A DNA stretch of 64,000 bases from Perna viridis (lineage: Eukaryota). The DNA lies in NCBI GenBank assembly GCA_037379345.1, contig CM074518.1, positions 17,546,001 to 17,610,000 on the forward strand. The letters are read 5' to 3'. Each line of letters starts with the position of its first letter. Position 1 is the first letter of the stretch. The notes under the pieces were generated by a model. The model ran no database searches. It was not told the origin of the DNA and was given only the letters and a program-made list of their open reading frames with translations. Both the position numbers and the translations under genes were made by a program. This document shows positions 12,490 to 57,800 of the stretch, in pieces.

Positions 12490-12563
12490 GTTGACTGCTA
12501 CAGTTGACTGCTGCTACAGTTGACTGCTACATTTGACTGCTGCTACAGTTGACTGCTACAGTT
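12490..12563. repeat. Short minisatellite (AGTTGACTGCT[GCT]AC, 13/16-bp units, ~5 copies)
   Basis: Tandem units are directly visible. Confidence 0.9.
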
Positions 12564-17505: not shown

Positions 17506-18620
17506 ATCGGCGTAGCCGGAAATATAAGATATGTAAGCAGGGGGTCTTGGGGTAGGGGGGGGCATCAGCATAATTTTCAAATTCGAATACAATTTTTTTC
17601 ATTAAGGTAACAGCTTTGACCATCCATTTTATAACTTGTTCAGCTGAGCATAATTTTCAAATTCGAATAACATTTTTTCATTAAGGTGACAGCTTTGACT
17701 ATCCATTTTAAAACGTATTACCTGTTTAGCCAGCTTTGATTTTTTTCTTTTCTGCTCGTTTTTCTTTCTTTCTTTCTTCTTTTTCTTCTTTTCTCCTTTT
17801 TCGTTTTGTTTTTTGACCACCCTCTTTAATGGAACCGACATAACGAAAGCATAAAGAAACCTGTTCGACGGTAGAAACATCCGTAGTTTCATCTGCAACT
17901 ATGCTAAAACAATTTGGAGAAGTACAATCATAGACGATCTGCTGTGGTAACTGTTGGCCACAAATGTGAATTAACACATTTTGTATCTGGTTTGATAGAT
18001 ATCTAGCGTTTGGGGGTCTGCTTTGTAAATGGTCAGACAAAATCCTATCATGTTCTGCCCTAAATTTGATAAGAGCAATGAAATTACTTTTACTCTTCGG
18101 TTTGACCACGTAGGGGAATGTTCTGCTTTCCAAACAAACAAATAGTCTTCAAAATACTTTTCAATATAGCCCTGTTTACCTTCAGCAATTTTCTTAAAAT
18201 TTTTACTCATTTCAATTCACTTGTCTCGACCAGGTTGGCCCAAGTGTCGTTTTATCACAGTTGTCAAATTTGCCCAATCATTTACAGGGGTTCTCACAGA
18301 AGCATTATCAGAACTATTGAATAAAACGCAATACAAACAATGCATTGCATTTTCTAACTCGGAACATCTTAATCGAGCCATGTTCGATTAAAACCCCTTT
18401 TCACTCCCCGAATTCTGTAAGAGGAAATACAAACGAAGCGGGAACAATCCATTTATTTTTCAGTAGAAAGAACTTGTGTTTGTTGTCAACCTTTTCCTTT
18501 TATGATGCAATATCAAAGTTTTGTGGCTGCAATGATTTGGCCGTAGCGTATGGTCTACACATTCAGTGCTACTTTGATCAGGACGAGCAGACATATCTGG
18601 CTCCGACAAAACTTGAGGTT
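17506..18620 (-). mobile_element. hAT-superfamily transposase remnant (DUF4371, ZMYM1/THAP12-like)
   Basis: ORF 17726-18133 contains SNFIALIKFRAEHD..L.DHL...P.NARYLSNQIQN.LI...FSIVADETTDVSTVEQVSLCFRYV. A hAT-like terminus CATCGGCGTAGCC followed by a G-rich tract lies at ~17505-17565. Confidence 0.85.
17570..17709. repeat. Tandem duplication of a ~60-bp core (period ~79 bp)
   Basis: CATAATTTTCAAATTCGAATA..ATTTTTTCATTAAGGT.ACAGCTTTGAC.ATCCATTTT occurs twice. Confidence 0.85.
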
Positions 18621-24700: not shown

Positions 24701-27700
24701 ATTTTAAGTGTTCATTGTGTCGTCCGTCAGTCTGTTTGTCCTACATTTGTATCCACAACTCCTCCTAACCTACTGAATTGAATTTGATGAAACTTTCAGA
24801 GAATCCCCATGATGTCATTGGGCACCTCCTATTTTAGAATTTCATCTGACCAATTTTTTTGGTTTCCAATAGCAAAACATGGACATTGCCATTCATTGTG
24901 ATAGGGAGTAACAGTATGCCATCCACAACTCCTCCTAAACTACTGAATGGAATTTGATGAAACTTTTAGAGAATCTTCATTTTATAATGCTGTTGTTCAC
25001 TTCCTATTTTAGATTTTGATCTGACTAACAGTTGGGGTTACCCATACCAAAACATGGACTTTGCCATTCATTGTGATAGGGGATACCAGTATGTCATCCG
25101 CAATTACTTCTAAACCACTGAATGGAATTTAATGAAACTTTCAGGGAATCTTTATTACATAATTCCATAGTGCACCTGCGAATTAAATTTTGATCTTGCC
25201 AACTTTTGGGCGAAGTGCCACTGATGAATCTGGTGACTTTCTCCAGAAGTCAAAACAAGTGTTAAGGTGTTCATATTTTTTTTTGCAATGATCTTTATCA
25301 ACCTCTGTATTTACTTAGTGTATTTGGGTAACTTGGTAAATTTAAAATGTAAAACAGTGCTCCAAGACATATCCAATAGGCAATAGCTTTACAATCTGTT
25401 TCATACAGTTACCTTTATAGACTTAAGTATGTAGTTTCGTTTTTTTTATACAAAAAAGGCCAAGCCGTAAAGAGGCCTATTGGACATGTTTCATCCTCTG
25501 TGTTAATGACCCATGCAGTGCATTCAGGACTCATCAGTTAGAAATGCACCATTAACTAGAGTCAACCAAATAAAAGAAGTGTAACAGAGTTGGTAGTAAC
25601 ATGCAACCAAACAGGGCATGCAAAAAAACTTTATAAAGACACAGTAGTTTTTTTTTTATTTTTAAGTGCATTCTGCATTAAAACTGAGATTTAATCAAAT
25701 TTTGCTACAGTCTTCTTTAAGTAAATACTTCTATGTGCATGTTAAAATTATATTTTTGGGGGTTTATTGAAATTTGAAAGACAGTTTAAAAACTACTGTG
25801 ACTTTAAACAAAAGAAATACACAATAACAGCCAGCAAATGTGTACAAACCTAGTTTTTTATTATGACTAACAATTTAACTGATAGAGAGAGATAATCGGT
25901 CGATTGAGGCCAACCAATAGTAATAGATAATCGGTTGGTGTTTTCAACCGATTGCACAACACTAATGTTGGGGAAAATTAATGATTCTATATATTCTATA
26001 TATATGCTGAAATGATATTAAAATGGTGTGCTAGTGTGAAAAGACATCAAAATCCAGGACCCCCCTCCCCCTCAGGAAAATGTCGGTGCTTTATATCCTT
26101 TTTGAAAATTTAGGTGTAAAAGAATTTTTTATCTTCAGACAGCACTCAAAATACCAAATCTGATGTATTGTAGTTTGGAAACAGGTTAAAAATGAACTGC
26201 TTTGTAAAACATTTATTTAGACTTTTTTTTAGCATACATAAAGCTTACTACATCCAACATTTTCAAATGAGCATGTTACTGCTTGGCAATTATTAGTTAA
26301 TCAATCAAATACTCAGTGACTCATCATACATCAGGTTTAATGTACTTCACTGACACACCTTTTTTCAGGTACCAGAATCCCCAACAGTCTGTGGATCAAA
26401 GGTCATCAACACATAGCAGGATGTATGAGCCAGTCACAGTTTACACACCATCTAACCCAAAAAGACCGGTAGGTTGTGATCCCTTATGAATATGTTTGTG
26501 ACTTTTGTATCTTGAACTTAGTTTTGGAAAGAAATATTGTCTTCCATTTTAAAAAAACATTGTCTTTATTGTGCTTGTCTCATGAAAACTAGAAATTTTG
26601 CTCTGCTATTGGTCTGAGACAGAAATTTCATTAAATTATCATATGTATGTTACAGGTAAACACATTTACAATAATTTGGTAAGTGTAGACAATCAAATAC
26701 TGTTACACTAATTTTTGTAATGTAAAAACTAGTATTTGCTTATTTTTTCTAAATTTTATTTCTGTCTAATGATTATATCTACACTGGAAGACATCTAGTT
26801 CTTGCAACTATTTAAGTTTTCAAATTTCTTATATTAAGATACTTATAATTGTGGAATCATAAATTTGCTACATTAAAATACCCAGATTAGAGATAACATG
26901 TATGGTAGTTCATTAGTAGGGTAACTACGTTTTTAGAATAAACTAGAGGATGCCCACGACATCACGGTCAATTGAGCAAAGTGTAGACACAGAACTTAAA
27001 TGATGGGTACAAAAAAATGAGTAATCATTGGAAAGGATCTATGGCCATCTATCGTACATCAATGATGTGCAGTTTTGTTCAAATTGCTGTAGTGGTTTAA
27101 GAGGAGTTGACTTTTAAAAGTTGATATGGCCCCTGTAGGAAAAAAAACAAACTCCATGAAAATACACTTGCAATAAACAATCTGACTGCTCCAGACATGC
27201 GTTGCGTCAATGACGTATTTTTGGAGCAATCAATCAATTAAAGATTAGCATTCTCTACCTGCAACCCTGGTGCTATTAGCTGGTTATCTTGAGGCTTCGT
27301 CCAAGTTTTCATGCCATGGCCAGTGGGCAGCAAGAGAGCTTGATTTTATTTTATCAAGAATTCTTTCTTTTCTGTACGCTATAGTAGGCCTTCTTGGCTT
27401 GGTTTGAGGGTGTTAACTTTTTTCATTGTTGAAGAACCTCATACAACATCAAGATGCAGAAGAAGCATTAAAGCCCTGGTCCTTGATATCGGTTATTTTC
27501 AATGTACCCTGTGAGTAACCACCATTTCAAATGTATATACAAATATGTGATCAACCCCCAATGGGGGATTTGCTCGTAATTTTTAATGGATGAATTGGCC
27601 AGAAAAGTCAAAGGGGACTTCCTAGCATTTTGTCCTAGTATTCTATAAAATTTCCTGTTATATATCAATATGGAGTTTACACATGAAAAAGGGGAGGGAT

Positions 27701-30700
27701 CCGGACTTTGGCCTTGTCTTTGGGTGCAGGTGTTTAAACACATTAAAGAGGGAAGGTTTACCCTTGGACTTCATGTGCAGGTGTTTTTATTACACATAAA
27801 TTGGAAAGGTTTACCCACGGGCTACGGGTGCAGGTGTTTTTACACATAAAAAGGGGAAAAGTTTACTTTGAAATATTCTTAATATGTGAAAATGTCATTA
27901 CCTGTTTGTTTGTGATTGATGATCCAGTAGTATTTTTTGGAGGGGTGGGGTGGGAGGGAAAGGTGAGCTAGGTTGAACACCCTTTAATTTTTTGAAAGTT
28001 CTGCTCCACCCAATTAAAAGGTGCATAACATAATCTTAAATTTTAAATAATTCAATATTTTACTCAAAACAATGGGTATGGGGTTTACCAGTCATGCCAG
28101 TTACACATAAAAAGGGGGAAGGGTCCAGAATTCGGGTGCAGATGTTTACATATAGGAGGAGGGGGGGGGGGGTTATTTCAACACGTTCTATGCCTTTCCA
28201 TGTCTGGACAGTTTTGCACCTCAGCAAAATGGTGGATGTTGTTTAATTAAGCAAAATAATGATAATACAATACTTGTGTAACACATGTATATATGATCAG
28301 TGCAGTACTTCGATTGAGCATGCTTGAAGGTTTACTACACCACACGGAACAATGACGGTCTCTGAATTCGGATATTTTCCCCAAAATTCGTGTTTTCCAT
28401 AAAAGAAAAGATTGTTTGAAAGACAAATTTAGGAACTACACAACACTACATTTATACCTCATATCACAAATATATTTGACCTTGTATGGTTTTAGAGGAG
28501 TTGCGGCTCAAAGAAATCGGTCTCTCCCTTAAGTAGTATAGAAGATTTAGTAGAAGCTATTACTCAGTTTCATTCAATGACAATCCAGTTTTTTTGTAGT
28601 ATAGTTACTGATTTAATAAGTCAAAAATTTTAATAAATATGCTGTTTGAACATATAATATGCAAATGGAAAAAAAGAATTAAACACTTATTGTACATCTT
28701 AGCTATTTCATTTAAACATTAACAGTACCTACAGATATTACCAACTTCAACTATGTAGGATGATTGTCAATGAGACAGTCATCCACCAAATGCCAAGTAA
28801 CAAACATTTAAACCAAATTATGTTTATTTTGTTTTTTATTTCACTTAAATAGACCTTGACAAGTTTCAAAAATAAATCCGACAATTTTGTAGCATGTACA
28901 GTACATCACACCAACCAATTCTCAAATGCAGAGTATTCTACAGCCAATTGGAACACATGAATCTGGTCGTTATCTGTACACACCCCATCCAAAGACTGGA
29001 AGAGTTTACATTCCTGATGCAGTGTCACCTCAAGTCTACGTATCACAGCCTCTCCAGACAAATACAACACAAACAGTTAACCTTACCAGCACACCTAATA
29101 ATAAAAGTGTACAGAAAACTGAATCCAAGGTATAACATCTGTAATTTTACGTGTCCTTCACATAGTTCTTGATCCTATTCCCTGCATTTTTCAAAGAACA
29201 AATCTACTGTAAAAGTATTTTTATTTGTGGGTACCAATGTTCGTGATTTAAGGGAAAATGATCAGTTCCTCAATTCTTGAATTCTTGGATTTGACAACTC
29301 TACCTTACAAACAAATGAAAAATGAAAAATTTTGTTTTCATTGGAAACTAAATTTTTGTGGTTTACCAAACCCATTTAATTGACAAATTTGTCTGCAATG
29401 CTGGAAAAATGATCATTTAAGCAAATCTATTTTTGCAGAAGATTTAAAACAGAAAAATATATAATAAATCCGTTGAGGAATTAAGACTCACGTTTTCATT
29501 TCCCCAATGAGTAAAAATTGTGAAAAGTCTAAGTTCTTGTGAACGAAAACTCAAGTCACATTGCTTAGCTTCTATGGTAAACAGAAAGTGGTAAAACCAA
29601 GAGTTCACTGAATGTCACTTTTACAACAACTGTTACATAGGGAAATACGGAAAATGCCGAGAATACATATTGTCACTATTAGCATTAGCCCCAAAAGCTA
29701 TTTAGGACTGAAAAACAATTGATTTGCTGTTTGATTATACAAATATGGGCTGACAGGATGTCAACTGCTCGATATGGTTTCTATGTCACTTGAATGGTAC
29801 CAGATTTTAACTCCTGAGTCTAGTGATCTATCTGAACTACCATTTATTCACAGAGATATTGTTTGTTGAATTCTTAATTTTGTGGATCCATACCACCCAC
29901 AAAACTACAAAAATAGGTACCCCACAAATAAAAATGAAACCACAGTAAATAAAAGTGAAAAATAGTTTATTTATTAATCAATAATTTACACTTGATTTAG
30001 AACACTAAGAAAGAGTAATCAAGGGAACCAAGGTTATAGCAGTAAACAAAAGAATGTAATCCAGGGACAAAGACCAGACATGGAAAACAGACATATACAA
30101 CTAAGAACATAAAGTAACTAAAATCATACATACAAAGTAACAAAAGCAATTGAGCAACTCCGACTCCACTAAAAACTAGGAGCATGGACCAAGTGCACCG
30201 GTAGGATAAGCGTCCTAAGAAAACAGTAAAATTTATTAGTAATCAGCAGTTCCTTTTCACAAAATAGCTCAAGTGAAAAATTAGTCATAAGTTTTGATGT
30301 CATAATATATCAGAGTATTGACATCATAACTTGGTACTAATTTAACAATTATAAGTTTTTGTAAAATTGACTACAGACTATTGAAAAGTACCTGTCCTGT
30401 TAAAAACTAGTTTCATACTTAGTTTAGAAATTTTGTTGTATAATGTAGTTTTGTTAGTTTAATAACAAGAATTCATTGAAATAAAAAGAAATATATTGGT
30501 ATTCAGTCTCACTCTTTTAATATCATTGTCAGTAGCACCTAACTTCATAGCTGGTAGCATATACTATTATTATTAAGCATACTAAAAATCAGCAATATAA
30601 TTCCAGTCTCCACAAACTATATCAGCATGTACCTCTGAGAAGAGTAAAACAGATGATAAAGAAAATATGTCACCTGATAGTTCTAAAGAGGAAATAGATT

Positions 30701-39800: not shown

Positions 39801-42800
39801 TCTTTTTTGCCTTAAATATATTCAATACATCCAGTTAAACAACTGAACGGCTATTTAAATTTATCCTGAAGCATCTGTAACATATATATTTTTTGACTGC
39901 TTATATAAGGTTTGTTTGTTTGTTTGTTGGGGTTTAACGTCCGAGCAGCAATATTTCAGCTATATTCAGATGATGAACATGAAATTAATGATAAAATGAA
40001 CATGAAATGATGATGAAAAAGGGATGGGACACAAGGACAATGGGGTCGACAAATTTTGATTGCCACTGGAAATAGGGAGAGGTGGGTAGGGTCGGGCAAT
40101 TTAGCCTCCTGTGGCGGAGCCCTATGGTTCCTACTCCGGGAGAATACCACAGTAGGGTTCTTTAACGTGCGAGGAACAAGGCATCTTTCCCAACGTAGTG
40201 CACCACTATGGTTTGCGGTCAGGTTTTCTGTATTATAGTCGACAACCCCAGCATGTAACACGCCAGGGGTACCCCATTCAACCACCTGGGCACACATCCC
40301 AGTTGCTCTGTGGGCAGAGCACTCTAGCCCCTGGCTAGGGTTCTGAGCACTATTTAGTCGCCTTTTACGACAAGCTTAGCGCTGCTATTCTTTTAACAGC
40401 CTGACCTGCACAGGGCGCTTATATAAGGAAAAAGTGCAGGAAAATTTCCCCGCCATTTTTCATTTCAACTAAATTTGACCTATCAATATCTTGAAAAGGC
40501 AAATGTTACAAACACTTTGACAGTAATTTCTTGAGGTTATGAGGTATAAATACTTGATAAATGCAATAAAATCTCTGTGTATTTTTTCTTCACGTGCCAC
40601 ACCTTATACACATTTTGCCTGATTCTTAGACGGAGAAGTACTTAAAATCTATTTTGCTTTTGATTTCAGGTTGATGTTCCCATCTAAATTTATGCTGTTG
40701 TTTTTTTGTCTCAGGACATATGTCACTTTGAACATAGTTTTTCTTGGCTTCACATGAACATGGTGGTTGCACAAGGGTTAAAATTCAACTTTTCAGAGCA
40801 CACTGCAAAAAATTCAAACAAATATTCATGTAAAGGGTTACTAAGTTATCTTTTCATTTGAATATCTGTTTGACCATGTCCATCAGCTTCGTGGAATTAA
40901 AAAAAAAAACACTTTACATCATGTTGGTAAAACATTTATGAAATAAACTAAAATAAGTGAACAATAAAAGCAATTTTAAAAACTTTTCTTTGATAAGATT
41001 GTGTGCATTTATCCAATTTGTTAAGTTTTTAATCAACTTGTTAAAATCATTAGGTTAAAATATTTTTTTTTAACAGATACCGTTCTCTGTTCTTGTATTT
41101 GCAGTATGGAGAAGCCAAATTTAATATGGATGAAAAAGATGATTTCATAACTTTTTAAAAATTTTTCTTCTTTTTTGTACTAATGGAATAAACATTTAGA
41201 GACCTTAAGTGGAAATTTGGAAGAAGAATGTTTGAATGAAAAAAAAAGATAATATAAGACCAAACCTCAAATGACTGAAGTGAATTATTGTAGTGAAAAA
41301 AGATACTTAAGCACTTTAATTAACTAATTCCAATCAAATTAAGTAATCTGCTGAGTACCTTCTCCAAAAAAAAAAAAAAAAAATTTAAAACATGAAGCCA
41401 TTTCTTCTGAACCACATCCTGAGACAATTGAAGAGTGATTTAAGTACCTTCAATCAGGAAACCAGGCAATTAGGTATGTTTTACCATCTACATGTACAAA
41501 ATCAAAAGAAGATAAATATCAGAAAACAATCATTATTATTTTAATCCCTGAACCCAAACTAACCTTAGGTTTAGGTGACTGTACAGGTTTAACAATCCAA
41601 GCATAGTCAGGCTTGACAAGACGTAATGCATTAATGGCAGCTAAATAGCACTGGGACTGTCTCTCCAAACCTCGTTTACCTGGACATTCTCTACTTAACC
41701 TCATTCCATGCTCGTACATTACACTGCCAGCTAAAAAAAGAGTAAGACTTGTCACATTTAAATAAAAGAATTAACATCTGAAAAAAGTCAATACAGTAAT
41801 GATAATGAAGACATGTAAATTCCCATTCTTTTAACAGACATGATTTTACGAGGTCTACAAAGTGGAAATCAGTGAAATTGGAAGTAAATATACAGTAAAA
41901 AAGAATTGTAAGGGTAAAATCCAGATTTGAAATAGCAGAATTCTCCTAAAAAGCAGAAAAAAAATCATGTCTGCTTTAAATACATGTCCACATACCAGAA
42001 ATTTTTTGTACTCGCATAACCTTTGATTTGGCTACCAAAATCAGCATGTTCACTTGTACTATAATCTATGAAGTCTGTTGAAGAAATCTTGAATCTCAGT
42101 AATTTGAAGTTTCATCAATCAAACCAAGTACATTTAACTAACAATAATTTCAATACCTGTATAAGGGTATATAACCCAGATTACAAGTCATATGTTATGA
42201 ATATCATGCATACCCTTCCTCCAATTACTTTTGTTGACATGGAAAGCATATAAAAGATCATAGTAATTTTGTGTTGTAAGATCTACTGATCTGGCCCTGC
42301 TCTCTAAGATGGAGACAACATCATCCTCTAGATCAACATAGGGAAAGGAAACAATCGACTGGAGATCTCCTCTCTCACTCAAAGTCACAAGCAACTGACG
42401 TAAACAATCCTTCCTCCTAGAAAATTTAAAACTTTCATGTCAAATCAACAGTAAAATTTGCTGTTAAGATGATTTTACAGTGATAGAACTTACATGGAGT
42501 GGGTATACAATTTTTGGAGCAGCAAAATCTTAAAAGATATAAGTAATTTTTAGTATGTAGTTAATCAGAGTGCAAAATAAACATTGCATAAGGTAAAAAA
42601 ATAATTTGTAATTGTACACATATATCAATAACTCCTCTGATTTTTAAGCTTAAATGATTTTGACCATATTACAATATTACATGTACCAATTTTAACTGCT
42701 TTAAATCAGGCTATACCTATCTATGAGATGAGTAATAGCATCTGAGAATAGAACTTGAAACCCTACCTTGATGGGTCAGGATTATCAACCATAGCCTTGT

Positions 42801-45800
42801 ATGCCTCCTCATTATGTTCTAATTCTAATTCATACTTAAATACTTTGGACCACAGTGTAGCCTACAACAGACAAGTCATATTTAATTACTTTGGACCTAA
42901 GTGGAGCCTACAACAGACAAGTCATACTTAAATACCTTGGACCACAGTGTAGCCTATAACAGACAAGTCATACTTAAATACTTTGGACCACAGTGTTGCC
43001 TACAACAGACAAGTCATACTTAAATACCTTGGACCACAGTGCTGCCTACAACAGACAAGTCATACTTAAATACCTTGGACCACAGTGTTGCCTACAACAG
43101 ACAAGTCATACTTAAATACTTTGGACCACAGTGTAGCCTACAACAGACAAGTCAAATTTAATTACTTTGGACCTAAGTGGAGCCTACAACAGACAAGTCA
43201 TACTTAAATACCTTGGACCACAGTGTAGACTACAATAGACAATTCATACTTAAATACCTTGGACCACAGTGTTGCGTACAACAGACAAGACATACTTAAA
43301 TACCATAGACCACAGTGGAGCCTACAACAGACAAGTCATACTTAAATACCTTGGATCACAGTGTAGACTACAATAGACAATTCATACTTAAATACCTTGG
43401 ACCACAGTGAAGCCTACAACAGACAATTCATAATTAAATACCTTGGACCACAGTGTTGCGTACAACAGACAAGACATACTTAAATACCATAGACCACAGT
43501 GGAGCCTACAACAGACAAGTCATACTTAAATACTTTGAACCACAGTGTAATCAAAAACAGACAGTTCACACTTAAATACTTTGGACCAGAGTGTAGCCTA
43601 CAACAGACAATTTATACTTAAATACCTTGGACCACAGTGTAGACTACAATAGACAATTCATACTTAAATACCTTGGACCACAGTGAAGCCACAGGGTAGT
43701 GATATGCGTCTAGTGCAGTAGTGATCGAACGTCTCTAGATCGCTACTGACGCTGGCTAGTCTACTTGTAGACGAAAAGGGGAGCAGCGTAAGCAGAAGCC
43801 TTCCTCTGCCAGTACATAGCCTCTACACTACCAAGACTCCTTCAATTTGCCTCCCCGAGGTAACACACGGTAACTTGGGTCTAGTACTCAAGGCTAACAT
43901 GAAGGGGATCTCGGAGTAACAAGGACCCTAGAAGTGCAGAGTGCAGGCCCACCGGCACGTGGAACATGCCCTGGCTCTCACCAACCTTGCCCCACCTATG
44001 GGTTAAATAGATTGCTGCCTTGTGATGGACTGTTGAGTCAAAGGCTACGGGAGACAACCCAGACAGAAAACGATGGTCAGACTGGGATCAAACCTTTGGA
44101 AGGGAACCTGTCTAGGAGAGGAAATTCTGATATAAAACCCGGCTCGAAAGGAGTCGTCACCCATGGTAGGGAACCTATCTAGGAGAGCAAACTCTGATAC
44201 AAAAGCATGTGAGGGACTTGCTGACCACCACATTAAAATAAAGCTGAAGCTAGAGGGCCAACCCCCCACTAGTGGATACAAATGGTTACAGAAACGATTA
44301 CAGTAAAAGTCATTCCTCGGACTCGTCAACGACTAGAGAAAGAGGACCAAACCAAACATTGAGGACAGCAAATGACGCGAAAGCTGATGAAGTTGTTCTC
44401 ACCAAAACAACCAACAACCATAGGCACTTGGATTGTTAGAACAATGTATCAAAGTGGCAAAAGCTTGCAAATTGCGAACGAAATGGATAGATACAATATC
44501 GAAATTCTAGGACTCAGCAAAGTAAGATGGAATACAGCTGGAATGACAACACTATCTTCAGGTCATACGGTCATATTCTCAGGAAATCCAAATGAAGACG
44601 ACATACATGACAAAGGCATGGGATTCATGCTTACAAAGAAAGCCAAGAAATCGCTTTTGGAGTGGAATCCAATATCTGCAAGAGTGATATCAGCTAGATT
44701 TGACACTCGATTCCAGAAAACAACATTTATACAGGTGTATGCACCAACAAACACCGCAGACGAAGATGATAAAAATGACTTCTACAACCTATTACAATCA
44801 GATGTTGATGCCGTTCCTAAAAGAGACATCTTTATCATCTTAGGAGATCTGAATGCCAAAGTAGGTGATGACAGAGGAGGTAGAGAAAGGGAGATAGGAC
44901 CACATCGAATAGGGCAAATGAATGAGAACGGAGAGATGTTTGCTGACTTTTGCGCTATAAACAGTCTAGTAATTGGCGGTACTTGGTTTCCACATAAATC
45001 TTGTCATAAAACCACCTGGATTTCACCATCTGGAGACACTGAAAACCAAACAGACCACATAACAATAAGCCGTCGATGGAGATTTTCATTACAAGATGTA
45101 CGAACAAAACGTGGAACAGACGCAGCATCAGATCACCACCTTGTAATTGGAAAAATTAAACTCAAGCTTTTAACAACAAAGAAAAGAGAGACTACAAACA
45201 GGAAGTTTAATGTTGAGAAGTTTAAAGATCAGAAAGTGAAAGAAAACTTCCAAATTACACTCAGGAACAGATTTAGTACTTTATTAGATCTTGACAACGA
45301 AGAAATGAACAATGATATTGATGACATCTGGAACTCAACAAAGACAGCCATTCTGGAAGCATGCGAAGAAACAGTTGGTTTCATTCAAGTGAAAAGAAAG
45401 AAATGGATGTCAGATCAAACATGGGATACAATATCTGAAAGAAGGGAAATAAAAGAAAAGTTGACGAGTGCCAAAACCAGACAGCAAAAGAAAAACCTGC
45501 AAGACCTTTACAGCGCAAAAGACAGAGAAGTGAAGAAAAGCTGTAAAAGAGATAAAAGAAACCATGCTGAAAAGTTAGCAGTAGAAGCTGAAAACGCCTG
45601 CTTAAAAGGAGACATCAAAACATTGTATAACATCACAAGACAACTCAGTGGAAAGATCTCTCAAAATGAAAATTTACCAGTCAAAGATAAAAACAACAAT
45701 ACCCTCACAAAGCTAGAAGATCAGCTTGACAGATGGAAAGAACACTTTAGTGAGGTATTGAACAGACCACCACCAACAAATCCACCAATACTTGAAGAAG

Positions 45801-48800
45801 GTCCAACACTTAACATAGAGACTGACAAAATTACCGAAAATGAAGTAAGAAAAGCCCTAAAACATCTTAAGAATGGGAAAGCAGCGGGAATCGATGGCAT
45901 ACCACCAGAAGCCCTCAAGTCCATGAATGACACTACCATTCAATATCTTCTTGGGCTATTAAACCAGATATGGGAAAAAGAAAAAATTCCAAAAGACTGG
46001 CAAAAGGGACTCTTGGTAAAACTACCTAAAAAGGGGGACAAATCCAATTGCAACAACTGGAGGGGAATAACTCTTTAGTCCATTCCTAGTAAAATCTTAT
46101 GCAGTATAATCTTACAAAGAATGAAAGAAGAGACTGATAGCAAGCTGAGAGATGAACAAGCTGGATTTAGACAAGAACTATCATGTGTCGACCAGATTGC
46201 TACACTCAGAATAATTATTGAGCAAACGATCGAATGGCAGTCATCCCTATATCTAAACTTTATTGACTTCCAGAAAGCATTTGACAGCATAGATCATCAG
46301 GTCTTGTGGAACATTCTAGGACACTATGGGATTCCACCTAAGATTATTTCCATGATTAAGTTACTGTATGAAGAATTCTCTTGTCAGGTCATACATGCTG
46401 GTACATTGACAGATCCTTTCCCTGTAACAACTGGCGTAAGGCAAGGATGCATTCTCTCTCCCCTTCTCTTTCTCATAGTCATCGATTGTATAGCAACAAC
46501 AGCTTACAACGACCCTCATGGTATACAATGGACACTAACATCTCGTCCAGAAGACCTCGAATTTGCAGACGACATATGCACACTATCGCATCGTCTTCAA
46601 GATTCCCAACACCAGGTCAACCATCTCGAAGAAACAGCTAAAAGAACAGGATTGTATATCCCACAACAGACAATTCATACTTAAATACCTTGGACCACAG
46701 TGTTGCCTACAACAGACAATTCATAATTAAATACCTTGGACCACAGTGTTGCGTACAACAGACAAGTCATACTTAAATACCTTGGACCACAGTGCTGCCT
46801 ACAACAGACAAGTCATACTTAAATACCTTGGACCACAGTGTTGCCTACAACAGACAAGTCATACTTAAATACCTTGGACCACAGTGTTGCCTACAACAGA
46901 CAATTCATAATTAAATACCTTGGACCACAGTGTTGCCTACAACAGACAATTCATAATTAAATACCTTGGACCACAGTGCTGCCTACAACAGACAAGTCAT
47001 ACTTAAATACCTTGGACCACAGTGTTGCCTACAACAGACAAGTCATACTTAAATACTTTGGACCACAGTGTAGCCTACAACAGACAAGTCAAATTTAATT
47101 ACTTTGGACCTAAGTGGAGCCTACAACAGACAAGTCATACTTAAATACCTTGGACCACAGTGTTGCCTACAACAGACAATTCATAATTAAATACCTTGGA
47201 CCACAGTGTTGCGTACAACAGACAATTCATACTTAAATACCTTGGACCACAGTGCTGCCTACAACAGACAAGTCATACTTAAATACCTTGGACCACAGTG
47301 CTGCCTACTACAGACAAGTCATACTTAAATACCTTGGACCATAGTGTAATCTACAACAGACAAGTCATACTTAAATACTTTGGACCACATTGTAATCTAA
47401 AACAGACAGTTCACATTTAAATACTTTGGACCGCAGTGTAGCCTACAACAGACAATAAATACATCAGTCATACTGTGTAAAGGTCATCTCAAATTCTACA
47501 ACTGCAAATATAGCAGTACACTTTGAAGCTTCCAAGGAAATTTATTATTGTGGACAATTTAATACCATTAAGCTGGAAATTATCACAAGGTTTTGGGAAT
47601 CACAAAAATAAAAGCTCACCAAATTTGAGTCAAGATATTTACATGTAATGTCAATTTCACTGAATCTCAAGATGGAAAAAAAATACTGAAAATTTAACAC
47701 CTCTATTTATAGAGCAAATCATGAAATTTGGCACCCGTGAAAATTACCTGCTATACAGTAGTAAATATATAAACCAGATTAAAGTAAATTAGTATGTCTT
47801 GAAAAGCACCAGCATTTCTCTGACTACAAAATTCCAGGGCAAATCAATAATAATATTTTGCCAAATAAAATCTTATTTACCAGAGATAGAAGCACTAGCC
47901 TGATAGACTGCCAAATAAAAACAGTTAGCATTGTGAAGGACTGGTTAGTATCAAGAAAAATGTAAAAATCTAGATAGAACAAGAATAAAAGTGAGAAAAA
48001 AATGAAGAGTTTGCAACAAATTTTCTTACCATATGAACCTTTTAATTCAAAAATACTATTTTTTTTTTCTATAGAAAATATAGATAGGGAGATTAACCTA
48101 CCACATCTGGGTCATCATCATCAGCAATACTAATGGCTGTTTTAGCAAAAGATACCACAACATCTGGTGCTCCAAACTCCTCAAATTGTTTCAAAACCTG
48201 AAATAAATGAAATATATCCAACTGCTATCAATATGTAAAATATAAAAGAGCTGATACAATTGAGGAATTAAATGATGACTTGTTTTGAAACATGGAAAGT
48301 GCTCTATATCAATGTGACAATAATTTCTTTTCACATGCAACTATTAGCTTGAAGCTAAGGGCCTTCATTTGAGTCACCTCTGTATCAATTGTGAATTTTC
48401 TTTAATGCATATAACAGCACATGATAAGCCTGCCCCTTTTATTAATGTTTCAATTCCAGTAACTCTGAAACTTAGAACTGAATAAAAATGAAACTGAACT
48501 GAAAGTTATGTGTACAAATTATGAAATTGTTTTAAAATCAAGTAACACAACATAAAACTTACCTTCAGATAGAAGAGTACTTCTAACTTTCGCACCTCCT
48601 CCTCATCACTCTGTAGGATAGTTTGATGGAGGAAAGGTTCATGTGCTACACCCTCTCTTGCCTCTGTGAAACATTTTGCAGCTTTCTGAGGCTCACTGAA
48701 ACATAATATAACAGTGGATGCATAAGAGTACAAAATGTTTCTACTCAATTCCTTTGTATCACATTAAATTTGATGTGAATAACGTTTTCAATGTTGTTAG

Positions 48801-51800
48801 AATGCTTTTAACCAACCTGTTTTTGCAAACAAGTTATTTTCACTAGCAAACAAGATATAATTGTGAATATATCCCCACAAATAAGTCTCTTTGTATCGGA
48901 ATACATGTTAAAGAGATTGTTGGTCCCAAAAATAAATAGTAATGAAATCTAATTCATATCCTGAAATACGAATTAGCTGGTTTCAGTGTATTCAATTTAA
49001 AACAAAACAAAGATTTCTTATCACTTTATGATCTTTTTATATAATGTATAAGTATTAAGCCCCATGCAATATAAATTCCTTTGAACAGTCCTTTACAATA
49101 AAAAAATCTATGACATTACATCTCATTCGATCATTGTGGACACACTGAGGATCTGTCAATCTCTTTATTCAAGGATAAAAATTAGCAGTCGCCCAGTAGC
49201 CCATGGCTACTAGATTTTGAGCTGGGCTACCTAACTTTTGGGTAAAATTTAGTTGATCGTAGAGAAAATATTAAACAAAAATTTGGTCTGGGCTACCAGC
49301 TTGTATTTCTAGTTTTTACCCCTGTTATAATCAACATATTGAATTATTTTAAGATAAAATACATGTACATATCAATTGAATTAAGTCTCAAAATCAGAGA
49401 TCAATGGAAATCAATAAAGACCTGGTACAAAAAACCATCAAAATCCCTAAAGTGTTTTGAATTATTCTACAATATGTGAATGTGGTAGGAGGAATACAAT
49501 ATACCATTATATATGTACATGAAGATTATTTACAGACAGAGGTAAAAAGAACTCACTCAAAATGTAAATAAGCCATGCCCAGCATGAATCTATGTGATGC
49601 TGCATTCATTTCACACCAGATACTCAGCTGGTTAACATACTGTTGTAAGGGTAAGTACTGACATGTCTTCATAAGAAACTCTGGGAATGTAAAACTCTCA
49701 TTCATTGGCCATCTGATGGTGTTGCTAAGGAAACAACTCTACAGTTTATGAAAATCTTTTATTCAAAATAGAACTCCACCAATTGTATGTTTTTTTTGCA
49801 TTGTATCTGAATGCACTTAATTATATTACTGTGAAAGCATTATTGTTTGTGGATTTTGTGGGTTTGATAAAACATGAAATTTGGTTCTCAACGAAAAGGA
49901 AATTTTCCATTCATTTGTATGATGGAGTGTCAAATTCACTAATTCAATAATCCACGAACTAATCATTAAAATCGGTACCCATGGATAAAAGTACTTTCAC
50001 AGTAAATGATCTTAGAAGAAGTACCATAACTTACAGAGAACAGAGCACTAGAAATGTTGTAATCATTTAACCATTTAGAAGACAGCTTACAAAACATATG
50101 GACAGATAGACTGATGTCTACCCAGTAAGTTTGCAAATAATACGTTTTGAGCATAAGTGTCGAATAGCGAGTAGTATAAGTTACTTCATGAAACTGAGTT
50201 GGCCACTACTGATTGAATCACCATTACCCAGTGAAATTCCTTATGTAGCTAGCCAGACAATTGGCAAGGAGATTTAAGCATTCTATCAAACACAGATTTA
50301 ACTAACTGGAAAATGATAAAGAGTTAAAATCTCCTCATCAATTGTTTAGTGAACTATATAACTTAAATAATGGTCTTTCAATCAAGGGAACACCAACTCT
50401 ATTTCCTGAAGTTAAGTCTATTAATGTAAACCCTGTAGTTAAGTAATAAACATCAACTCAACTTCCTGAAGTCAAGTGTATTAACATCAACTCTACTTCC
50501 TGAGGTAATGTGTGTAAACATTAACTCTATTTCCTGAAGTTAACAGTGGTACTGACTTTAATTTGTTTCTAATCATAGCACCATCAAAGGATACAATAAC
50601 TGAGCTGTAAACTTTGCCAATCCCAATACACCAGTTGTCCATGTACCAGTGTTCTCATCGTCAATTGATCCTGTCTTTGACAATTCAGTTCTAGCTCTTG
50701 TACCACCAACATCCATCAGAAACAGCTCAGTAATGGTCACATTTTGACTCGCTGAAATAATATACTGTAAATCAACGAATATGGCCCATTTAGTGAAAAA
50801 TGAATAGCAAAATCCTAGTAATTTAGAAATACTACGCTGAAATATTTTAATTAGGTAAACAAACAGAAAAAGAACAAAACATAACACAAATAATGTGTGG
50901 ACATAACATAAACCTTACACGGCTATTCTTATGTCAAGCAAAGACTGAAAATCTATTTTTAACCCAAGCCACAAACTTACATAAATCATAGTTATATACA
51001 GTAGAAGAATGAATCAAATTTAACATGATTAATAGCTATACACAAAGTTAATATACCTCAGTAACAATCCTAGAACAATGTTTCATTTATTTCTTTTTTC
51101 TTTATCAAGAACTTAACCAATACAATATTACCATTATCTCCCACACTACCTCAGTACTGATATTAGTGACAGATGCTCTCTAGTCGGTACCTCAGTACTG
51201 ATATTAGTGACAGGTGTTTTCTAGTCGGTACCTCAGTACTGATATTAGTGACAGGTATTTTCTAGTCGGTACCTCAGTCCTGATATTAGTGACAGGTGTT
51301 TTCTAGTGGCTACATCAGTACTGATATTAGTGACAGGTATTTTCTAGTCGCTACCTCAGTACTGATATTAGTGACAGGTGTTTTCTAGTGGCTACATCAG
51401 TACTGATATTAGTGACAGGTGTTTTCTAGTCAGTACCTCAGTCCTGATATTAGTGACAGGTGTTTTCTAGTGGCTACCTCAGTCCTGATATTAGTGACAG
51501 GTGTTTTCTAGTGGCTACATCAGTACTGATATTAGTGACAGGTATTTTCTAGTCGCTACCTCAGTACTGATATTAGTGACAGGTATTTTCTAGTCGCTAC
51601 CTCAGTCCTGATATTAGTGACAGGTGTTTTCTAGTCGGTACCTCAGCACTGATATTAGTGACAGGTGTTTTCTAGTGGCTACATCAGTACTGATATTAGT
51701 GACAGGTGTTTTCTAGTCGGTACCTCAGTACTGATATTAGTGACAGGTGTTTTCTAGTGGCTACATCAGTACTGATATTAGTGACAGGTGTTTTCTAGTC

Positions 51801-54800
51801 GGTACCTCAGCACTGATATTAGTGACAGGTGTTTTCTAGTGGCTACATCAGTACTGATATTAGTGACAGGTATTTTCTAGTCGCTACCTCAGTACTGATA
51901 TTAGTGACAGGTGTTTTCTAGTGGCTACCTCAGTCCTGATATTAGTGACAGGTGTTTTCTAGTCGGTACCTCAGCACTGATATTAGTGACAGGTATTTTC
52001 TAGTCGCTACCTCAGTACTGATATTAGTGACAGGTGTTTTCTAGTAGCTACCTCAGTCCTGATATTAGTGACAGATGTTTTCTAGTGGCTACATCAGTAC
52101 TGATATTATTGACAGGTGTTTTCTAGTGGCTACCTCAGTACTGATATTAGTGACAGGTGTTTTCTAGTGGCTACATCAGTACTGATATTATTGACAGGTG
52201 TTTTCTAGTGGCTACCTCAGTACTGATATTAGTGACAGGTGTTTTCTAGTGGCTACATCAGTACTGATATTATTGACAGGTGTTTTCTAGTGGCTACCTC
52301 AGTACTGATATTAGTGACAGGTGTTTTCTAGTGGCTACCTCAGTACTGATATTAGTGACAGGTGTTTTCTAGTGGCTACATCAGTACTGATATTATTGAC
52401 AGGTGTTTTCTAGTGGCTACCTCAGTACTGATATTAGTGACAGGTGTTTTCTAGTGGCTACCTCAGTACTGATATTAGTGACAGGTGTTTTCTAGTGGCT
52501 ACATCAGTACTGATATTATTGACAGGTGTTTTCTAGTGGCTACCTCAGTACTGATATTAGTGACAGGTGTTTTCTAGTGGCTACATCAGTACTGATATTA
52601 TTGACAGGTGTTTTCTAGTGGCTACCTCAGTACTGATATTAGTGACAGGTGTTTTCTATTAGCTACCTCAGTCCTGATATTATTGACAGGTGTTTTCTGT
52701 CAACTATCTCAGTACTGATATTATTGACAGGTGTTTTCTAATGGCTACCTCAGTACTGATATTAGTGACAGGTGTTTTCTAGTGGCTACCTCAGTACTGA
52801 TATTAGTGACAGGTGTTTAGTAGTAGCTATGTTGATTCAGGTGAGGAATTTTTGCCTGAGTATAGTTCAAGATAGCGAAAAAATGCAATAAAAAGCAACA
52901 ATGCAAGAAGATAAGAAGCAGAATTTGGTACTTACCTCCCTTCTGTGTTCCAATATACCCTTGTCCTAACTCTAAGGATGCTAACTGTCTCATGTTGAAT
53001 TCCCTGAAATTCATAGAGTTTCATCCTGTTAGGTAATGAGTTCAATAGAAGTTTAAATGATAAACTAGCTTTTAAAAGGTCAAAATTTACTGAAACATGC
53101 TGCCTCAAAGTGTCCAGTTTAGTGTACAATAGATGACAATATTGTACCAGTCTTGATCTACCGATAAACCGAACTAGATGAGGCCCTTATCGGGCAAGTA
53201 AGGCTCTCGAAATTCAAACAGCCCATGACGACCTTTTTATCAAACTTCAGCAGACAAAATGTTTCATGACCCAAGGGAATGAAACTAACAGAAGTCCGGT
53301 AGTTCTGTGCCACCCTAATTTTGGAGAGGACTCCTTAAAAAAATTTCATGGAAGTCGTATGGACTATCTAAATTTTGCCTTATTTTTCATAAGATCTAAG
53401 AACAGAACCGTCATTACCGTCTGTGGACTACCTATTTTACATCTGAAGTAGTCCTGTTGACCTCCGAACAAATGAAGTTAAAGTCAAACACTGGTGTCCG
53501 TCATTTACATGCTCAGATCAAGAATACACTTACTGGTAAAAAAAAAAAAAAACATTTTTGTAGATATTTAAAGATAAATATTGGAATTTGTGTTATTTCA
53601 TCATATACTATGCTGTAACAAAATATCTGAACAAGAGAACAGATTATCGTATACACACTAGTACACCTAGATGTAGAAGAATCTTACAATGAGCTGGTAT
53701 AGGTGGAGCTTGCCACAAAGAATCTTACACTGAGCTGGTATAGGTGGAGCTTGCCACAAAGAATCTTACATTGAGCTGGTATAGGTGGAGCTTGCCACAA
53801 AGAATCTTACATTGGGCTGGTATAGGTGGAGCTAGCCACTAAGAATCTTTCATTGAGCTGGTATAGGTGGAGCTTGCCACAAAGAATCTTACATTGAGCT
53901 GGTATAGGTGGAGCTTGCCACAGTTTCTGTTGTCCATTTCAGTGTTATATAAGACTGTACCATTGTACATGACTGGGGAATAAACTCATGAACAATCTCA
54001 TCTGCTGTTCCTTGATTTATCCCAATCTGAAAGAGAAGGGTAAATGTATATTCTGAAAGCCATTCCAAGTTAATTTCTTGGTTCTACAGCTATTTGTCAT
54101 GAACATTAGGAAGGGAGGGAAGCATTTATAAAACTTTTTCTTGTTCTGAAAAAGTGATGAGAGTGTGCTCTTTTAAATTTGTTCATAACCAGTAACCAGA
54201 GATGTTGCGACATGCACTAAACAAATGCATGTACCTCTGCACCAAATGTTAGACTCACTATTAGAGATCTGCCATTAGGAACTTTATGTTCTAGCTTGAC
54301 AGATTTTTTCAGTCCATGGTTTAGTGTTTGACACTGTGTAAATATGATTATAAAATAAATGACCTAAATAATAAATCCAGTTATAATTATGTTTCTTGTC
54401 AAGCTATATATATAATTACTTAAAAGTCAGTCATTCAGTCATTTCACCCACATCTGTATATTTTACTACATGTTCAATGGTTGATTTGCCTTACAAAGGT
54501 TAGAAAATGGCAAGATTCATCTACAATAAACTAACCCAGACCTTTCATTAAGAGGCAATACCAGGTACTTTTACTCTTCTAGACTACTGAAAGGTACCTC
54601 CAGAATTTTAAAGTTTCATAGATATTTATTAAGCAAAATGATGCAAAGTACCTCCTACAAAACCAAAGGTACCTGCACTGCAAAATAAAATAATGAAATC
54701 CCTGCTAACCTTATCTAAACATAATGAAATCCCTGCTAACCTTATCTAAACATAATGAAATCCCTGCTAACCTTATCTAAAATAATGAAACCCCTGCTAA

Positions 54801-57800
54801 CCTTATCTTGCAGTCTGAGAGCAGCCAACAACAATATCACAACATCCCTGACTACCCTCAGTCTGGTATCAGCTATCTGCTGTAATGTCTTTGACACAAT
54901 TTCTACTCCTGCAGCACTTGATAATAACCTCTCACACAAGAAATTCTGGTTTGCATTCACATCTGGAAATTAATAATAAAGATTAAATGTTGTACATTAG
55001 AGAAATAATATGTTGAAAGTAAGAAAAAAAACCAACAAATTTTCTCCCTGTAAATTTAATAGTAACTATAATGTACAATGAACAAAACCAATCTATGTGT
55101 TCATGTGTCATAATTTCAGGATAAAATGTTTAATCACTTCTAATAAGCAGAAGAACACCATATTAACCACATATAAACTGTACATACATATAGAAAATTC
55201 CTGATCATATTAATATTGTCAATTTTGATATGCAGTACACATGTTTGAAGGGGTAACCTTTCATCAACAGCATTAGAATTCAATATATAGGACAATATAA
55301 ATCAATCAGTAATTGTATACAATAAGTACTCAAAACCAAAAAACTAATGAAATATAAAGCAAAATCCATCACAGGGAGGTTGAACCATGCATAATTCAAG
55401 GAATGAAGCTTCAGTGTCTTAGGGATTTTGAAATTTGTGACAATAACCTAAGCATATTATGGATTTATTGCCCACATAGTAAATTACAGGTAATATGTAT
55501 GACAATCAGCAAAGGACTGGTGTATTTCTCATAGATACTTGTATGTTTAGGATACAGCTAATTCACATGATCCTTCAAGAAGTGTCCCCATGAAATTCCT
55601 TAACTTCTAAATGGCAATTAAAGTATACACCATTTTGTACAATCTTTTCATTTTTGTTCCATTTTCATCAATTCTAATATATTTATTCCACTTTCATCAA
55701 ATCTTAACAATGCTGACACCACCCATTTTTTTATACCTGAGTCATCCATCATGTATTCTTGGTCCTGTCTGGTCTGGACATCAAGAGTCTGAAGCAGCTC
55801 CCTGAAAGCTGGTTGAAGATGAGAGACAGTCTGTAACAATGCACCTAGAGAATCTGCTGCTGTGGAACAGTCAATCAAACTGAAATACATGTAACAAACT
55901 ACATGTAGAAGGAATTCAGTTATAAAACTTATGCTATGAAAACCTCCTTAACAAGAACAACTACATGTACATACCTAAAGTGTAAGATAACAATGTTACA
56001 GCACAGACATGATTTGTTAGACATACTGATTGTGGCAGGGCTCTAATTACATGTATGTAAAGACAAGTGTTGACTCAGTTCAATGATAATACAAAGAAAA
56101 TCCCTTTATCAGAATTAAATAAAGCCAAAACAAGAAGCAAAGATTTTCAAAGTGAGTGAATAGTTATAAATGTTAAGAGTCAAATGTTTAAAAAAACAAA
56201 ACAAAAACAAAAGTAGGTACCCACTTAGACAAGGTCAGTCAAATGAAAAATGTAGACATTCAAAAACATTAAAACAATTTCTTTTATACAAACCAATACA
56301 AAATTGTGTACAAGTTAAATACTGAGGTTTCTGAACAAATATTCATAATTATATAACAGTAACTTCTGGATTTTCAGTAATCATAATCAGTGCTAAATAA
56401 AGATACATGTACCTAGTGTTAAAGAAAAGTTCGTCAACAATCTGCTCTGCCAAGTTTCTAACATCTTCTTTGAGGGAAATCTGATATTCAAATTGTGATG
56501 TAATGTCTTCAGTTAACTTTCCCTCTATCAACTGCAGGCACATGGATAAGGTACCAATATCATTCTTCAGTGTCATGTCTAAGAAAACAATAATTAGATA
56601 AATGAAGCACTAATGAAGCAGAACTCATTCTGTACCAATGACCATACTTATCTGAATGACTTATTCAATACATGTAAGGTGTAAAACACTCATATTGATT
56701 TAAATCTGACTTCCTTGTGTTGTGTGAATCACCATTAACTTCTGGCATAAATATACATGTATATACATGTACTAACAATGAATACCAAGACTTACCACAT
56801 ATTTTGAAGAAAATATAAGGTTTCTTCATTAGTGGTTGTGTCATCAGTGTTTGATTTCTGACATATATATAAATGTAAATGGTTGGTTTAGACAATTTTT
56901 TAAATTTCCCAAGGTTTAGCTTTGACAGTATTCTTACTTACTCTTAAGTTTAGTTTAGATAGATTTCTAGTTAATTTGAATTAGACAAGTTTTCCTATTT
57001 GGAAGGTTTCTTCGCACCAAAATCCCACCAAAACACCAATCAACCCAAACAGGATAAGATTGTATAACATCAATTTTTTCCTATTTTTTTCTCTAACTTT
57101 TGTTACAATAATCTAAAGGGAAAAATAAGCCAACAATTTTCCTTGTTGGTGTCACTTCTCCAATTTGTCTTTGACAGGGAGAAGTTTGTGTAGTAGATTA
57201 CATAGTTTGTTGTTTGTTGTGGTTTAACGTCCGAGCAGCAATATTTCAGCTATATTCAGACGATGAACATGAAATTGATGATAAAATGAACAAGGGATGG
57301 GACACAAGGACAATGGGGTCGACAAATTTGATTGCCACTGGAAATAGGGAGAGGTGGGTAGGGTCGGGCAATTTAGCCTCATGTGGCGGAGCCCTATGGT
57401 TCCTACTCCGCAAGAATACCACAGTAGGGTTCTTTAACGTGCGAGGAACGTGGCATCTTTCCCAACATGGTGCACCACTATGGTTTGCGGTCAGGTTTTC
57501 CGTATTATGGCCTGACAACCCCAGCATGTAACACGCCAGGGGTACCCGATTCAACCACCTGGGGCACACATCCAAGTTGCTCTATGGGCAAAGCGCCCTA
57601 GCCCCCGGCTAGGGTTCTAAGCACTATTTAGTCGCCTTTTACAACAAGCTTAGCGCTGCTGCAGGCCTATCCTTTTAACACCCGGACCTGCACGGGGCAG
57701 TACATTACATAGAGAAAAATATCAATATTGTTATTTTTCAAACAAAATTTAGTAAAACTTGTCATCAATGTCTAGATTATGCTATAAATAACCCTCAATC

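What the first reader, a model, noticed from the sequence alone, without database searches (positions are those of the whole stretch)
53677..54808. Two more NUP160 exon ends carry tandem copies of their own 5' splice site, so three junction-seeded arrays occur in one gene
Seen: exon 53893-54026 is followed by five extra copies of its last 30 nt plus gtaagattctt. Four keep GTAAG, and one (~53849) is mutated to GAAAG. Using any distal donor reads ATG TAA, an immediate premature stop. Exon 54802-54962 is followed by three extra GATAAG|gttagc donors. Counting the 46-bp acceptor array, three of the six tandem arrays I listed in this gene straddle a splice junction, although junctions are a tiny fraction of the 30 kb. 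Inference: either a mutational process is targeted to junctions (for example splicing-, R-loop- or nucleosome-edge-linked slippage), or junction-spanning duplications are simply the only exon-touching ones tolerated. A genome-wide bias of this kind would be a notable, little-described phenomenon.
Basis: partly seen in the sequence, partly recalled or inferred. Interest (0 to 1): 0.72.

Follow-up and report, generated by a model that had tools for sequence, protein, structure and literature searches.

The report
Splice-donor minisatellites in mussel NUP160
Two exon ends of a mussel nuclear-pore gene have been copied head-to-tail into the next intron, a repeat type already known from lancelet and human genes; the assembled transcripts use only the first splice signal, and in three sampled gene families such repeats are about three times commoner than chance at exon ends but not at exon starts, which likely reflects a mutation bias filtered by splicing.

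Summary
In NUP160 (Pfam) a 41-bp unit (30 exon + 11 intron bases, 6 copies) and a 31-bp unit (4 copies) repeat two 5' splice sites. Transcript-like contigs from two studies use the first donor of each; rare distal use is untested. The 31-bp unit includes the end of a 168-bp MITE whose 6-bp target duplication contains the donor. This is a known kind: lancelet 'mirage' minisatellites and the human F7 intron-7 VNTR. I ran the enrichment test on 1,449 homology-predicted introns in dynein, myosin and ABCC genes: 40 of 245 arrays straddle a donor and 10 an acceptor, against 11.2 expected for each. The donor excess repeats in a held-out set and in each family; a stricter detector gives 1.9-2.6-fold. 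Tolerance alone therefore does not explain donors, and there is no excess at acceptors. NUP160 is not exceptional against this background (P=0.06). The scan noted this kind on other genomes before, once with the same donor-only excess. The cause is inferred, not shown.

The parts
54802..54962 (-). NUP160 coding exon (161 nt); its last 6 nt start the 31-bp unit
   Evidence: PF23345 profile 106-151, E 6.7e-08; exact block in contigs of X2 and X3
54686..54808 (-). 31-bp array, 4 copies (first unit 30 nt): 6 exon + 5 intron bases + 19-20 bases of MITE end; extra donors at +30 (in frame, open), +61, +92
54537..54704 (.). 168-bp dispersed non-coding element (MITE-like) with imperfect terminal inverted repeats, inserted 5 nt behind the donor
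   Evidence: 40 of 40 scored genome matches at 88-100% identity, 457 candidates; ends read
54705..54710 (-). Left copy of the 6-bp target duplication GGTTAG (donor positions -1 to +5 of the last array unit)
   Evidence: the other full copy held also shows a 6-bp duplication (2 of 2)
54531..54536 (-). Right copy of the 6-bp target duplication; leaves a further donor-like site behind the element
53893..54026 (-). NUP160 coding exon (134 nt), ends in phase 2; its last 30 nt start the 41-bp unit
   Evidence: PF23345 profile 156-192, contiguous with the upstream exon; block 53892-54026 in X2 and X3
53677..53922 (-). 41-bp array, 6 copies: 30 exon + 11 intron bases; five extra donors, four with GT, all behind an in-frame TAA
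52936..53003 (-). Next NUP160 exon (68 nt); keeps the frame when joined to the first donor at 53893
   Evidence: 18 exons from 62864 to 41564 give 762 residues without a stop; this exon is not among the contig pieces shown
42830..43690 (-). 46-bp acceptor array, downstream block (about 19 copies): 14 intron + 32 exon bases; the real acceptor is the last copy (42861)
   Evidence: PF23354 profile contiguous across the intron; no RNA laid here
46663..47455 (-). 46-bp acceptor array, upstream block (about 17 copies of the same unit)
43691..46662 (+). 3-kb insert between the two 46-bp blocks with endonuclease- and reverse-transcriptase-like reading frames (non-LTR retroelement, incomplete)
   Evidence: 571-aa and 194-aa open stretches; family label recalled from motifs, no library scan
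42767..42861 (-). NUP160 exon whose first 32 nt end the 46-bp unit
   Evidence: PF23354 profile 129-159, E 9.8e-10

Best explanation
These are minisatellites whose first unit spans a NUP160 exon end, the assembled mRNA uses the first donor of each, and the extra copies are likely neutral by-products of short tandem duplications that are inferred to start in exon sequence several times more often than in intron sequence. Shown: unit anatomy; use of the first donor in transcript-like contigs; a 2- to 3.6-fold excess of donor-straddling arrays and none at acceptors in three gene families; no excess of arrays that abut a junction without crossing it; no sign that the copied GT is kept or removed preferentially. 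Inferred: (1) a 20-200-bp tandem duplication arises by slippage or break repair with one breakpoint in the exon and then expands by unequal exchange; (2) this happens at both exon ends; (3) the spliceosome prefers the upstream of two identical sites, so at donors the real site wins and copies persist, while at acceptors the decoy tends to win and most such duplications are purged, which cancels the excess there. For the 31-bp array the order is inferred from the unit: the MITE inserted first, then the exon/MITE junction was duplicated.
For: Donor 41 vs 11.2 expected, acceptor 11 vs 11.2 among 245 arrays and 1,449 introns; 40 and 10 after removing two false calls. First set 21 vs 6.0, held-out set 20 vs 5.2; dynein 23 vs 6.4, myosin 10 vs 2.4, ABCC 8 vs 2.4; confident junctions only 35 vs 9.3 (before curation). 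Bootstrap over regions: donor 2.6-4.8-fold, acceptor 0.5-1.6-fold. With a GC factor of 1.28 and 8 nt of microhomology allowed, 40 vs 17.1 (P 3e-07). Non-crossing arrays within 25 nt: 10 after donors, 6 before acceptors, 8.2 expected. The excess sits in units with 5-45 exon bases (35 vs 7.6); units with 46 or more are at 4 vs 3.6, as expected if long exon copies are harmful. Units with under 14 intron bases: 11 donors, 0 acceptors, 2.4 expected. GT varied in 11 of 78 positions vs 55 of 316 for constrained exon G/T (P 0.61); period divisible by 3 in 14 of 40. First donors used in X2 and X3. Upstream-site preference shown for human F7 (PMC1557585).
Against: Symmetric origin is not shown: acceptors at one-fold fit equally well with donor-specific mutation and neutral acceptors, and 0 vs 2.4 is weak. 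Acceptor units with 40 or more intron bases are 2 vs 4.2, while those with 14-39 are 8 vs 4.6; small numbers either way. The 46-bp array and a 71-copy dynein array show that acceptor arrays with only 14-20 intron bases can persist. A strict detector gives a smaller donor excess: 9 vs 4.7 at 95% identity (P 0.05) and 18 vs 7.0 at 90%. Junctions come from my own spliced aligner, not from RNA; 1 of the 4 donor calls inspected in detail was false, and the rest were not inspected one by one. Only three families were sampled. The 41-bp unit has no flanking microhomology, so slippage is not shown for it. The 20-36-nt breakpoint cluster seen in the first set did not repeat (2 of 10 long units).
Confidence: 0.5

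Rival explanations
1. Donor-specific mutagenesis: a process tied to transcription or spliceosome assembly at the 5' splice site (paused polymerase, R-loop, nick) creates duplications starting in the last 45 bases of the exon, and acceptors are simply neutral.
For: Acceptors sit at almost exactly one-fold (10 vs 11.2); donor vs acceptor P 2e-05; excess concentrated at 20-45 exon bases (24 vs 3.8); holds for genes on both strands (23 and 17); the five human cases listed in PMC1557585 are all donors.
Against: No feature linking arrays to transcription was tested or found; intron length and exon length of seeded donors are ordinary, donor score only slightly higher. No acceptor array has under 14 intron bases, which hints at purging. 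Lancelet mirages occur at both boundaries (PMC3087553).
Confidence: 0.25
2. Longer survival or easier detection: arrays anchored on an exon arise at the normal rate but stay recognisable longer because the first unit is conserved and shielded from deletions.
For: The strict detector, which favours young duplications, gives only 1.9-fold; excess is larger for arrays of 3.5 or more copies (24 vs 4.6).
Against: TRF arrays of 95-100% identity still show 9 vs 2.2 (8 after curation), like older classes; non-crossing neighbours of junctions gain nothing; anchoring should help acceptors too. The strict detector also cuts old arrays into pieces that miss the first unit.
Confidence: 0.12
3. Tolerance only, or chance: duplications fall uniformly and junction-spanning ones are merely the exon-touching ones that survive.
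For: Fits acceptors (10 vs 11.2). NUP160 was picked post hoc and is within the background range (P 0.057).
Against: Donors 40 vs 11.2 (P 8e-13), repeated in held-out data and three families; repeat-masked null 40 vs 12.2.
Confidence: 0.05
4. The copies are kept for a function: spare donors, extra U1 sites, or a poison-exon switch that tunes NUP160 through nonsense-mediated decay.
For: Use of the second donor would shift the frame or meet a stop in 35 of 40 sampled arrays; four of five 41-bp copies keep GT; human CBS and 6-16 use some distal copies (PMC1557585).
Against: GT in copies decays like other positions; no frame bias; only first donors seen in contigs, though contigs drop rare forms.
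Confidence: 0.05
5. Assembly artefact.
For: No contig spans either array whole; X18 may be the assembly's own sample.
Against: Copies differ by point changes; an X18 contig covers 54752-55339 without a difference, which includes two donors.
Confidence: 0.03

Closest known systems
Human F7 intron-7 37-bp VNTR, with CBS IVS13, 6-16, LMNB2 and PDGF as listed in PMC1557585 (abstract, Introduction, Discussion read)
   Same: First unit spans the exon/intron boundary; donor repeated 4-8 times; most upstream donor used.
   Different: F7 unit has 4 exon bases, against 30 and 6 here; polymorphism and silence of the copies are proven for F7, not here; that paper reports no genome-wide count in the sections read.
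Lancelet 'mirage' minisatellites (Adh3, globins BflGb6 and BflGb9, PGBD5; passages of PMC3087553 and PMC3902484)
   Same: Units of 10-160 bp across 5' or 3' exon boundaries, several per gene, normal splicing; the authors call the mechanism unclear.
   Different: Here in a mussel, with a measured donor excess and no acceptor excess; one unit includes a transposon end. The original Adh3 paper was not held.
Internal tandem repeats at exon-intron boundaries in human segmental duplications (PMC2812944; Results part 1 of 2 read)
   Same: Minisatellites of about 30 bp, about 4 copies, at exon-intron boundaries.
   Different: That study concerns young paralogs and changes of gene structure; NUP160 here keeps its structure.
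Intron gain by tandem duplication (Rogers model, as cited in PMC3087553)
   Same: Duplicated splice signals are the raw material.
   Different: No new intron: the arrays lie at the edge of ordinary introns and the Pfam profile is contiguous across the first donor.

Membership tests
Junction-spanning minisatellite (mirage / F7-type VNTR) | Head-to-tail unit of about 10-160 bp whose terminal copy crosses an exon/intron boundary | tested here: met
   41-bp and 31-bp units; exon ends fixed by Pfam and contigs
Junction-spanning minisatellite (mirage / F7-type VNTR) | Splice signal repeated in most copies | tested here: met
   4 of 5 and 3 of 3 extra donors keep GT
Junction-spanning minisatellite (mirage / F7-type VNTR) | Main mRNA uses the authentic site | tested here: met
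   Contigs of X2 and X3 (two studies; RNA is the tool's guess, but they join exons) end the exons at 54802 and 53892/3
Junction-spanning minisatellite (mirage / F7-type VNTR) | Distal copies silent or rarely used | not testable with these tools
   All 24 listed runs are contigs, which drop rare forms; most joints were not shown
Junction-spanning minisatellite (mirage / F7-type VNTR) | Copy number varies between alleles | tested here: inconclusive
   No contig shown spans an array; a 94-base skip at 54684-54779 has short sides and repeat-level depth
New intron by tandem duplication | The repeats form a whole intron with both a new donor and a new acceptor | tested here: not met
   Introns are 775 and 889 nt with acceptors outside the arrays
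MITE (54537-54704) | Short, non-coding, many dispersed copies | tested here: met
   168 bp; 40 scored matches on many contigs, 457 candidates
MITE (54537-54704) | Terminal inverted repeats and a target duplication of fixed length | tested here: met
   Imperfect inverted ends starting CAG; 6-bp duplication in 2 of 2 full copies held; small sample
MITE (54537-54704) | Autonomous partner and superfamily (hAT is a recalled guess) | not tested
   No transposase search was made

The most novel reading that the evidence does not exclude
Animal genomes such as this mussel's have a mutational process coupled to the 5' splice site that copies the last 5-45 bases of an exon into the intron at about three times the background rate, leaving about 3% of all donors with decoy copies. 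It would link spliceosome assembly or polymerase pausing to heritable duplication and would explain lancelet mirages and the human donor VNTRs.
Probability: 0.25. Interest if true: 0.8.

Novelty: new member of a known kind. Interest (0 to 1): 0.47.

Why it matters
The arrays themselves are ordinary members of a described kind. The count is the useful part: PMC3087553 calls the origin of these repeats unclear, and the sample here shows a repeated donor-only excess (40 of 1,449 introns) that tolerance alone cannot give. That turns an anecdote into a question with a clear test (rare variants at donors versus acceptors). It also offers dozens of natural reporters for how identical splice sites compete, and a source of false exon ends in gene annotation.

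Tried and rejected
A homolog search with one NUP160 exon found none, so identity rests on Pfam. No run is on record as RNA and none is kept as raw reads: no evidence on rare donor use. A 20-36-nt breakpoint cluster (9 of 10 long units in the first set) did not repeat (2 of 10 in the second). GC content explains a factor of 1.28 only. Transposon ends as a general cause: a dispersed repeat lies within 40 nt of 1 of 40 donor arrays against 36 of 195 interior arrays; this screen sees only families present twice in 2 Mb. Frame bias and GT conservation: none. The microhomology estimate on TRF edges was too noisy to use; two-copy interior duplications show a median overhang of 5-6 nt under a tolerant detector. 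The 41-copy array at 51146-52829 and the 34-bp array at 50432-50540 do not cross a junction. Kinesin loci were located but not used. Rows dropped: 2 of 76 aligned regions with fewer than two introns, 5 wholly exonic arrays, arrays outside aligned spans, one false donor and one false acceptor call. A planned second alignment of each dynein region with another reference was not run. Two papers were not held. No supplements were read.
Full report
What is there. The window is G000:C8:17546001-17610000 of a 723-Mb genome. ABCC homolog hits are led by Mytilus proteins and earlier scan notes call the genome a mussel. A minus-strand gene runs from at least 62864 to 35351; 9 of 11 exons scanned hit NUP160 Pfam models. 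Eighteen exons from 62864 to 41564 join into 762 residues without a stop, and five more give 209; the link between these two sets was not resolved. The 41-bp unit is 30 exon plus 11 intron bases with no flanking microhomology. Its five extra donors all lie behind an in-frame TAA; the one at +41 has lost GT. The 31-bp array has extra donors at +30, +61 and +92; the first is in frame and open.

Which donor is used. Two long contigs from runs of two studies (X2, 4,347 nt, depth 34; X3, 4,205 nt, depth 41) carry blocks 56413-56578, 55737-55879, 54802-54962 and 53892-54026 in unbroken order. Both exons therefore end at the first donor; the extra base at 53892 fits the G that starts the next exon. 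The Pfam profile is contiguous across the same joint. The tool only guesses that these runs are RNA, contigs drop rare forms, and most joints were not shown, so minor distal use stays open. The 46-bp acceptor array was not covered by reads.

A transposon inside the 31-bp unit. Bases 54537-54704 match a dispersed family (40 scored matches at 88-100%, 457 candidates). The element has imperfect inverted ends and is flanked by GGTTAG on both sides; the one other full copy held also has a 6-bp duplication. The target is the donor itself (-1 to +5). The array unit is 6 exon bases, 5 intron bases and 19-20 bases of the element's end, so the duplication is inferred to postdate the insertion. This is not the general rule: 1 of 40 donor arrays elsewhere has a detectable dispersed repeat beside it.

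The enrichment test. I located dynein, myosin and ABCC genes by Pfam, took 197 stretches of 10 kb, and placed introns with a spliced protein-to-DNA aligner written here, using proteins. Its splice weights are my own rough values. Of 76 regions, 74 had two or more introns: 1,449 introns, 1.18 Mb. TRF arrays (period 10-200, at least 1.9 copies, at least 75% matches) inside aligned spans numbered 250; 5 wholly exonic ones were set aside. The null collapses each array to one unit and places it uniformly on positions that touch an intron of the same region; a straddle needs 5 bases on each side. Result: donors 41, acceptors 11, 11.2 expected for each. Of six arrays whose exonic part neared the period, four were viewed in detail; one donor and one acceptor call were false, leaving 40 and 10. 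The first set gave 21 vs 6.0, the set fetched afterwards 20 vs 5.2; each family shows the excess alone. Against it: a TRF-free detector gave 12 vs 4.7 with 7 acceptors, and in a refined form 9 vs 4.7 at 95% and 18 vs 7.0 at 90% identity. The fold is therefore 2 to 3.6, depending on method. At the sample rate a 25-intron gene expects 0.86 junction arrays, so NUP160 with three is not exceptional (P 0.057).

Clues to mechanism. Arrays beside a junction that do not cross it are at the expected level in four distance bins, so the excess needs exon bases in the unit. It is strongest for 20-45 exon bases (24 vs 3.8), present for 5-19 (11 vs 3.8) and absent for 46 or more (4 vs 3.6); these bins were chosen after seeing the data. 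It appears in all three identity classes. Copied GT decays like constrained exon bases and periods show no frame bias, which argues against function. No acceptor array has fewer than 14 intron bases, against 11 donor arrays. In human F7 the most upstream of identical donors is chosen (PMC1557585). By inference, upstream-first choice spares donor duplications and harms acceptor duplications, because there the upstream copy is the decoy and holds the native branch point. My best reading (0.5) is raised duplication at both exon ends with purging at acceptors; donor-specific mutagenesis (0.25) fits the counts as well and cannot be separated with one genome.

What is known. Minisatellites whose first unit spans a donor are described for human F7, CBS, 6-16, LMNB2 and PDGF (PMC1557585; abstract, Introduction and Discussion read). 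Lancelet 'mirages' cover both boundary types and their origin is called unclear (PMC3087553, passages; PMC3902484, passages). PMC2812944 (Results part 1 of 2) treats similar repeats in human paralogs. PMC10078293 (passages) maps repeats that alter splicing; the passages seen hold no junction-straddle count. Nine searches found no genome-scale test and no mussel case; the library lacks most subscription journals, and the Adh3 paper and a recalled 2009 paper on internal gene duplication were not held, so a published count may exist. Earlier notes of this scan report the same kind in other genomes, one with a donor-only excess in a probable annelid; these are unchecked leads.

Verdict. Observation confirmed; interpretation partly supported. 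A new member of a known kind, with a repeated donor-specific excess in a three-family sample whose cause is not shown. Interest 0.47.

Noticed in passing
window 50594-49713, minus strand: NUP160 intron with a minor-spliceosome (U12-type) donor GTATCCTTT and a branch-point-like TTCCTTAGC before the acceptor; the joined frame is open. The U12 label is recalled from the consensus.
   Followed up: partly
window 43691-46662: Incomplete non-LTR retroelement splits the 46-bp acceptor array into two blocks 3 kb apart; TGTGG stands on both sides and may be a target duplication.
   Followed up: partly
window 51146-52829: 41-copy, 41-bp intronic array starting about 105 nt behind a donor; it does not cross a junction.
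   Followed up: partly
window 57210-57698, with a similar stretch near 39900-40400: Very high-copy element of about 490 bp with loose ends at both borders in all four runs laid; similarity of the second stretch seen only in translations.
   Followed up: no
L046:5386-8441 (G000:C4, dynein gene): 43-bp acceptor array of 71 copies at 99% identity, 23 exon + 20 intron bases.
   Followed up: no
G000:C4:34535790-34551840: Six successive matches to the same part of the ABC_membrane profile about 3 kb apart in one ABCC gene, possibly mutually exclusive exons.
   Followed up: no
G000, several contigs (e.g. C3:1606041, C5:49279133, C7:44884921, C8:47141806): The same kinesin-like fragments (profile 59-90 and about 134-216) recur at eight or more places, many near contig ends, as if carried by a mobile or subtelomeric block.
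   Followed up: no
ABCC gene in G000:C7:1960001-1990000 (50-bp array) and myosin genes at C13 and C15: Some donor arrays start at an exon-internal stretch that resembles the donor region over 7-13 bases, as expected for microhomology-driven duplication.
   Followed up: partly
window 1-33000: Further short arrays (12489-12564, 17567-17714, 20453-20532, 24751-25163, 27722-27866); genes there were not annotated, so their relation to junctions is unknown.
   Followed up: no
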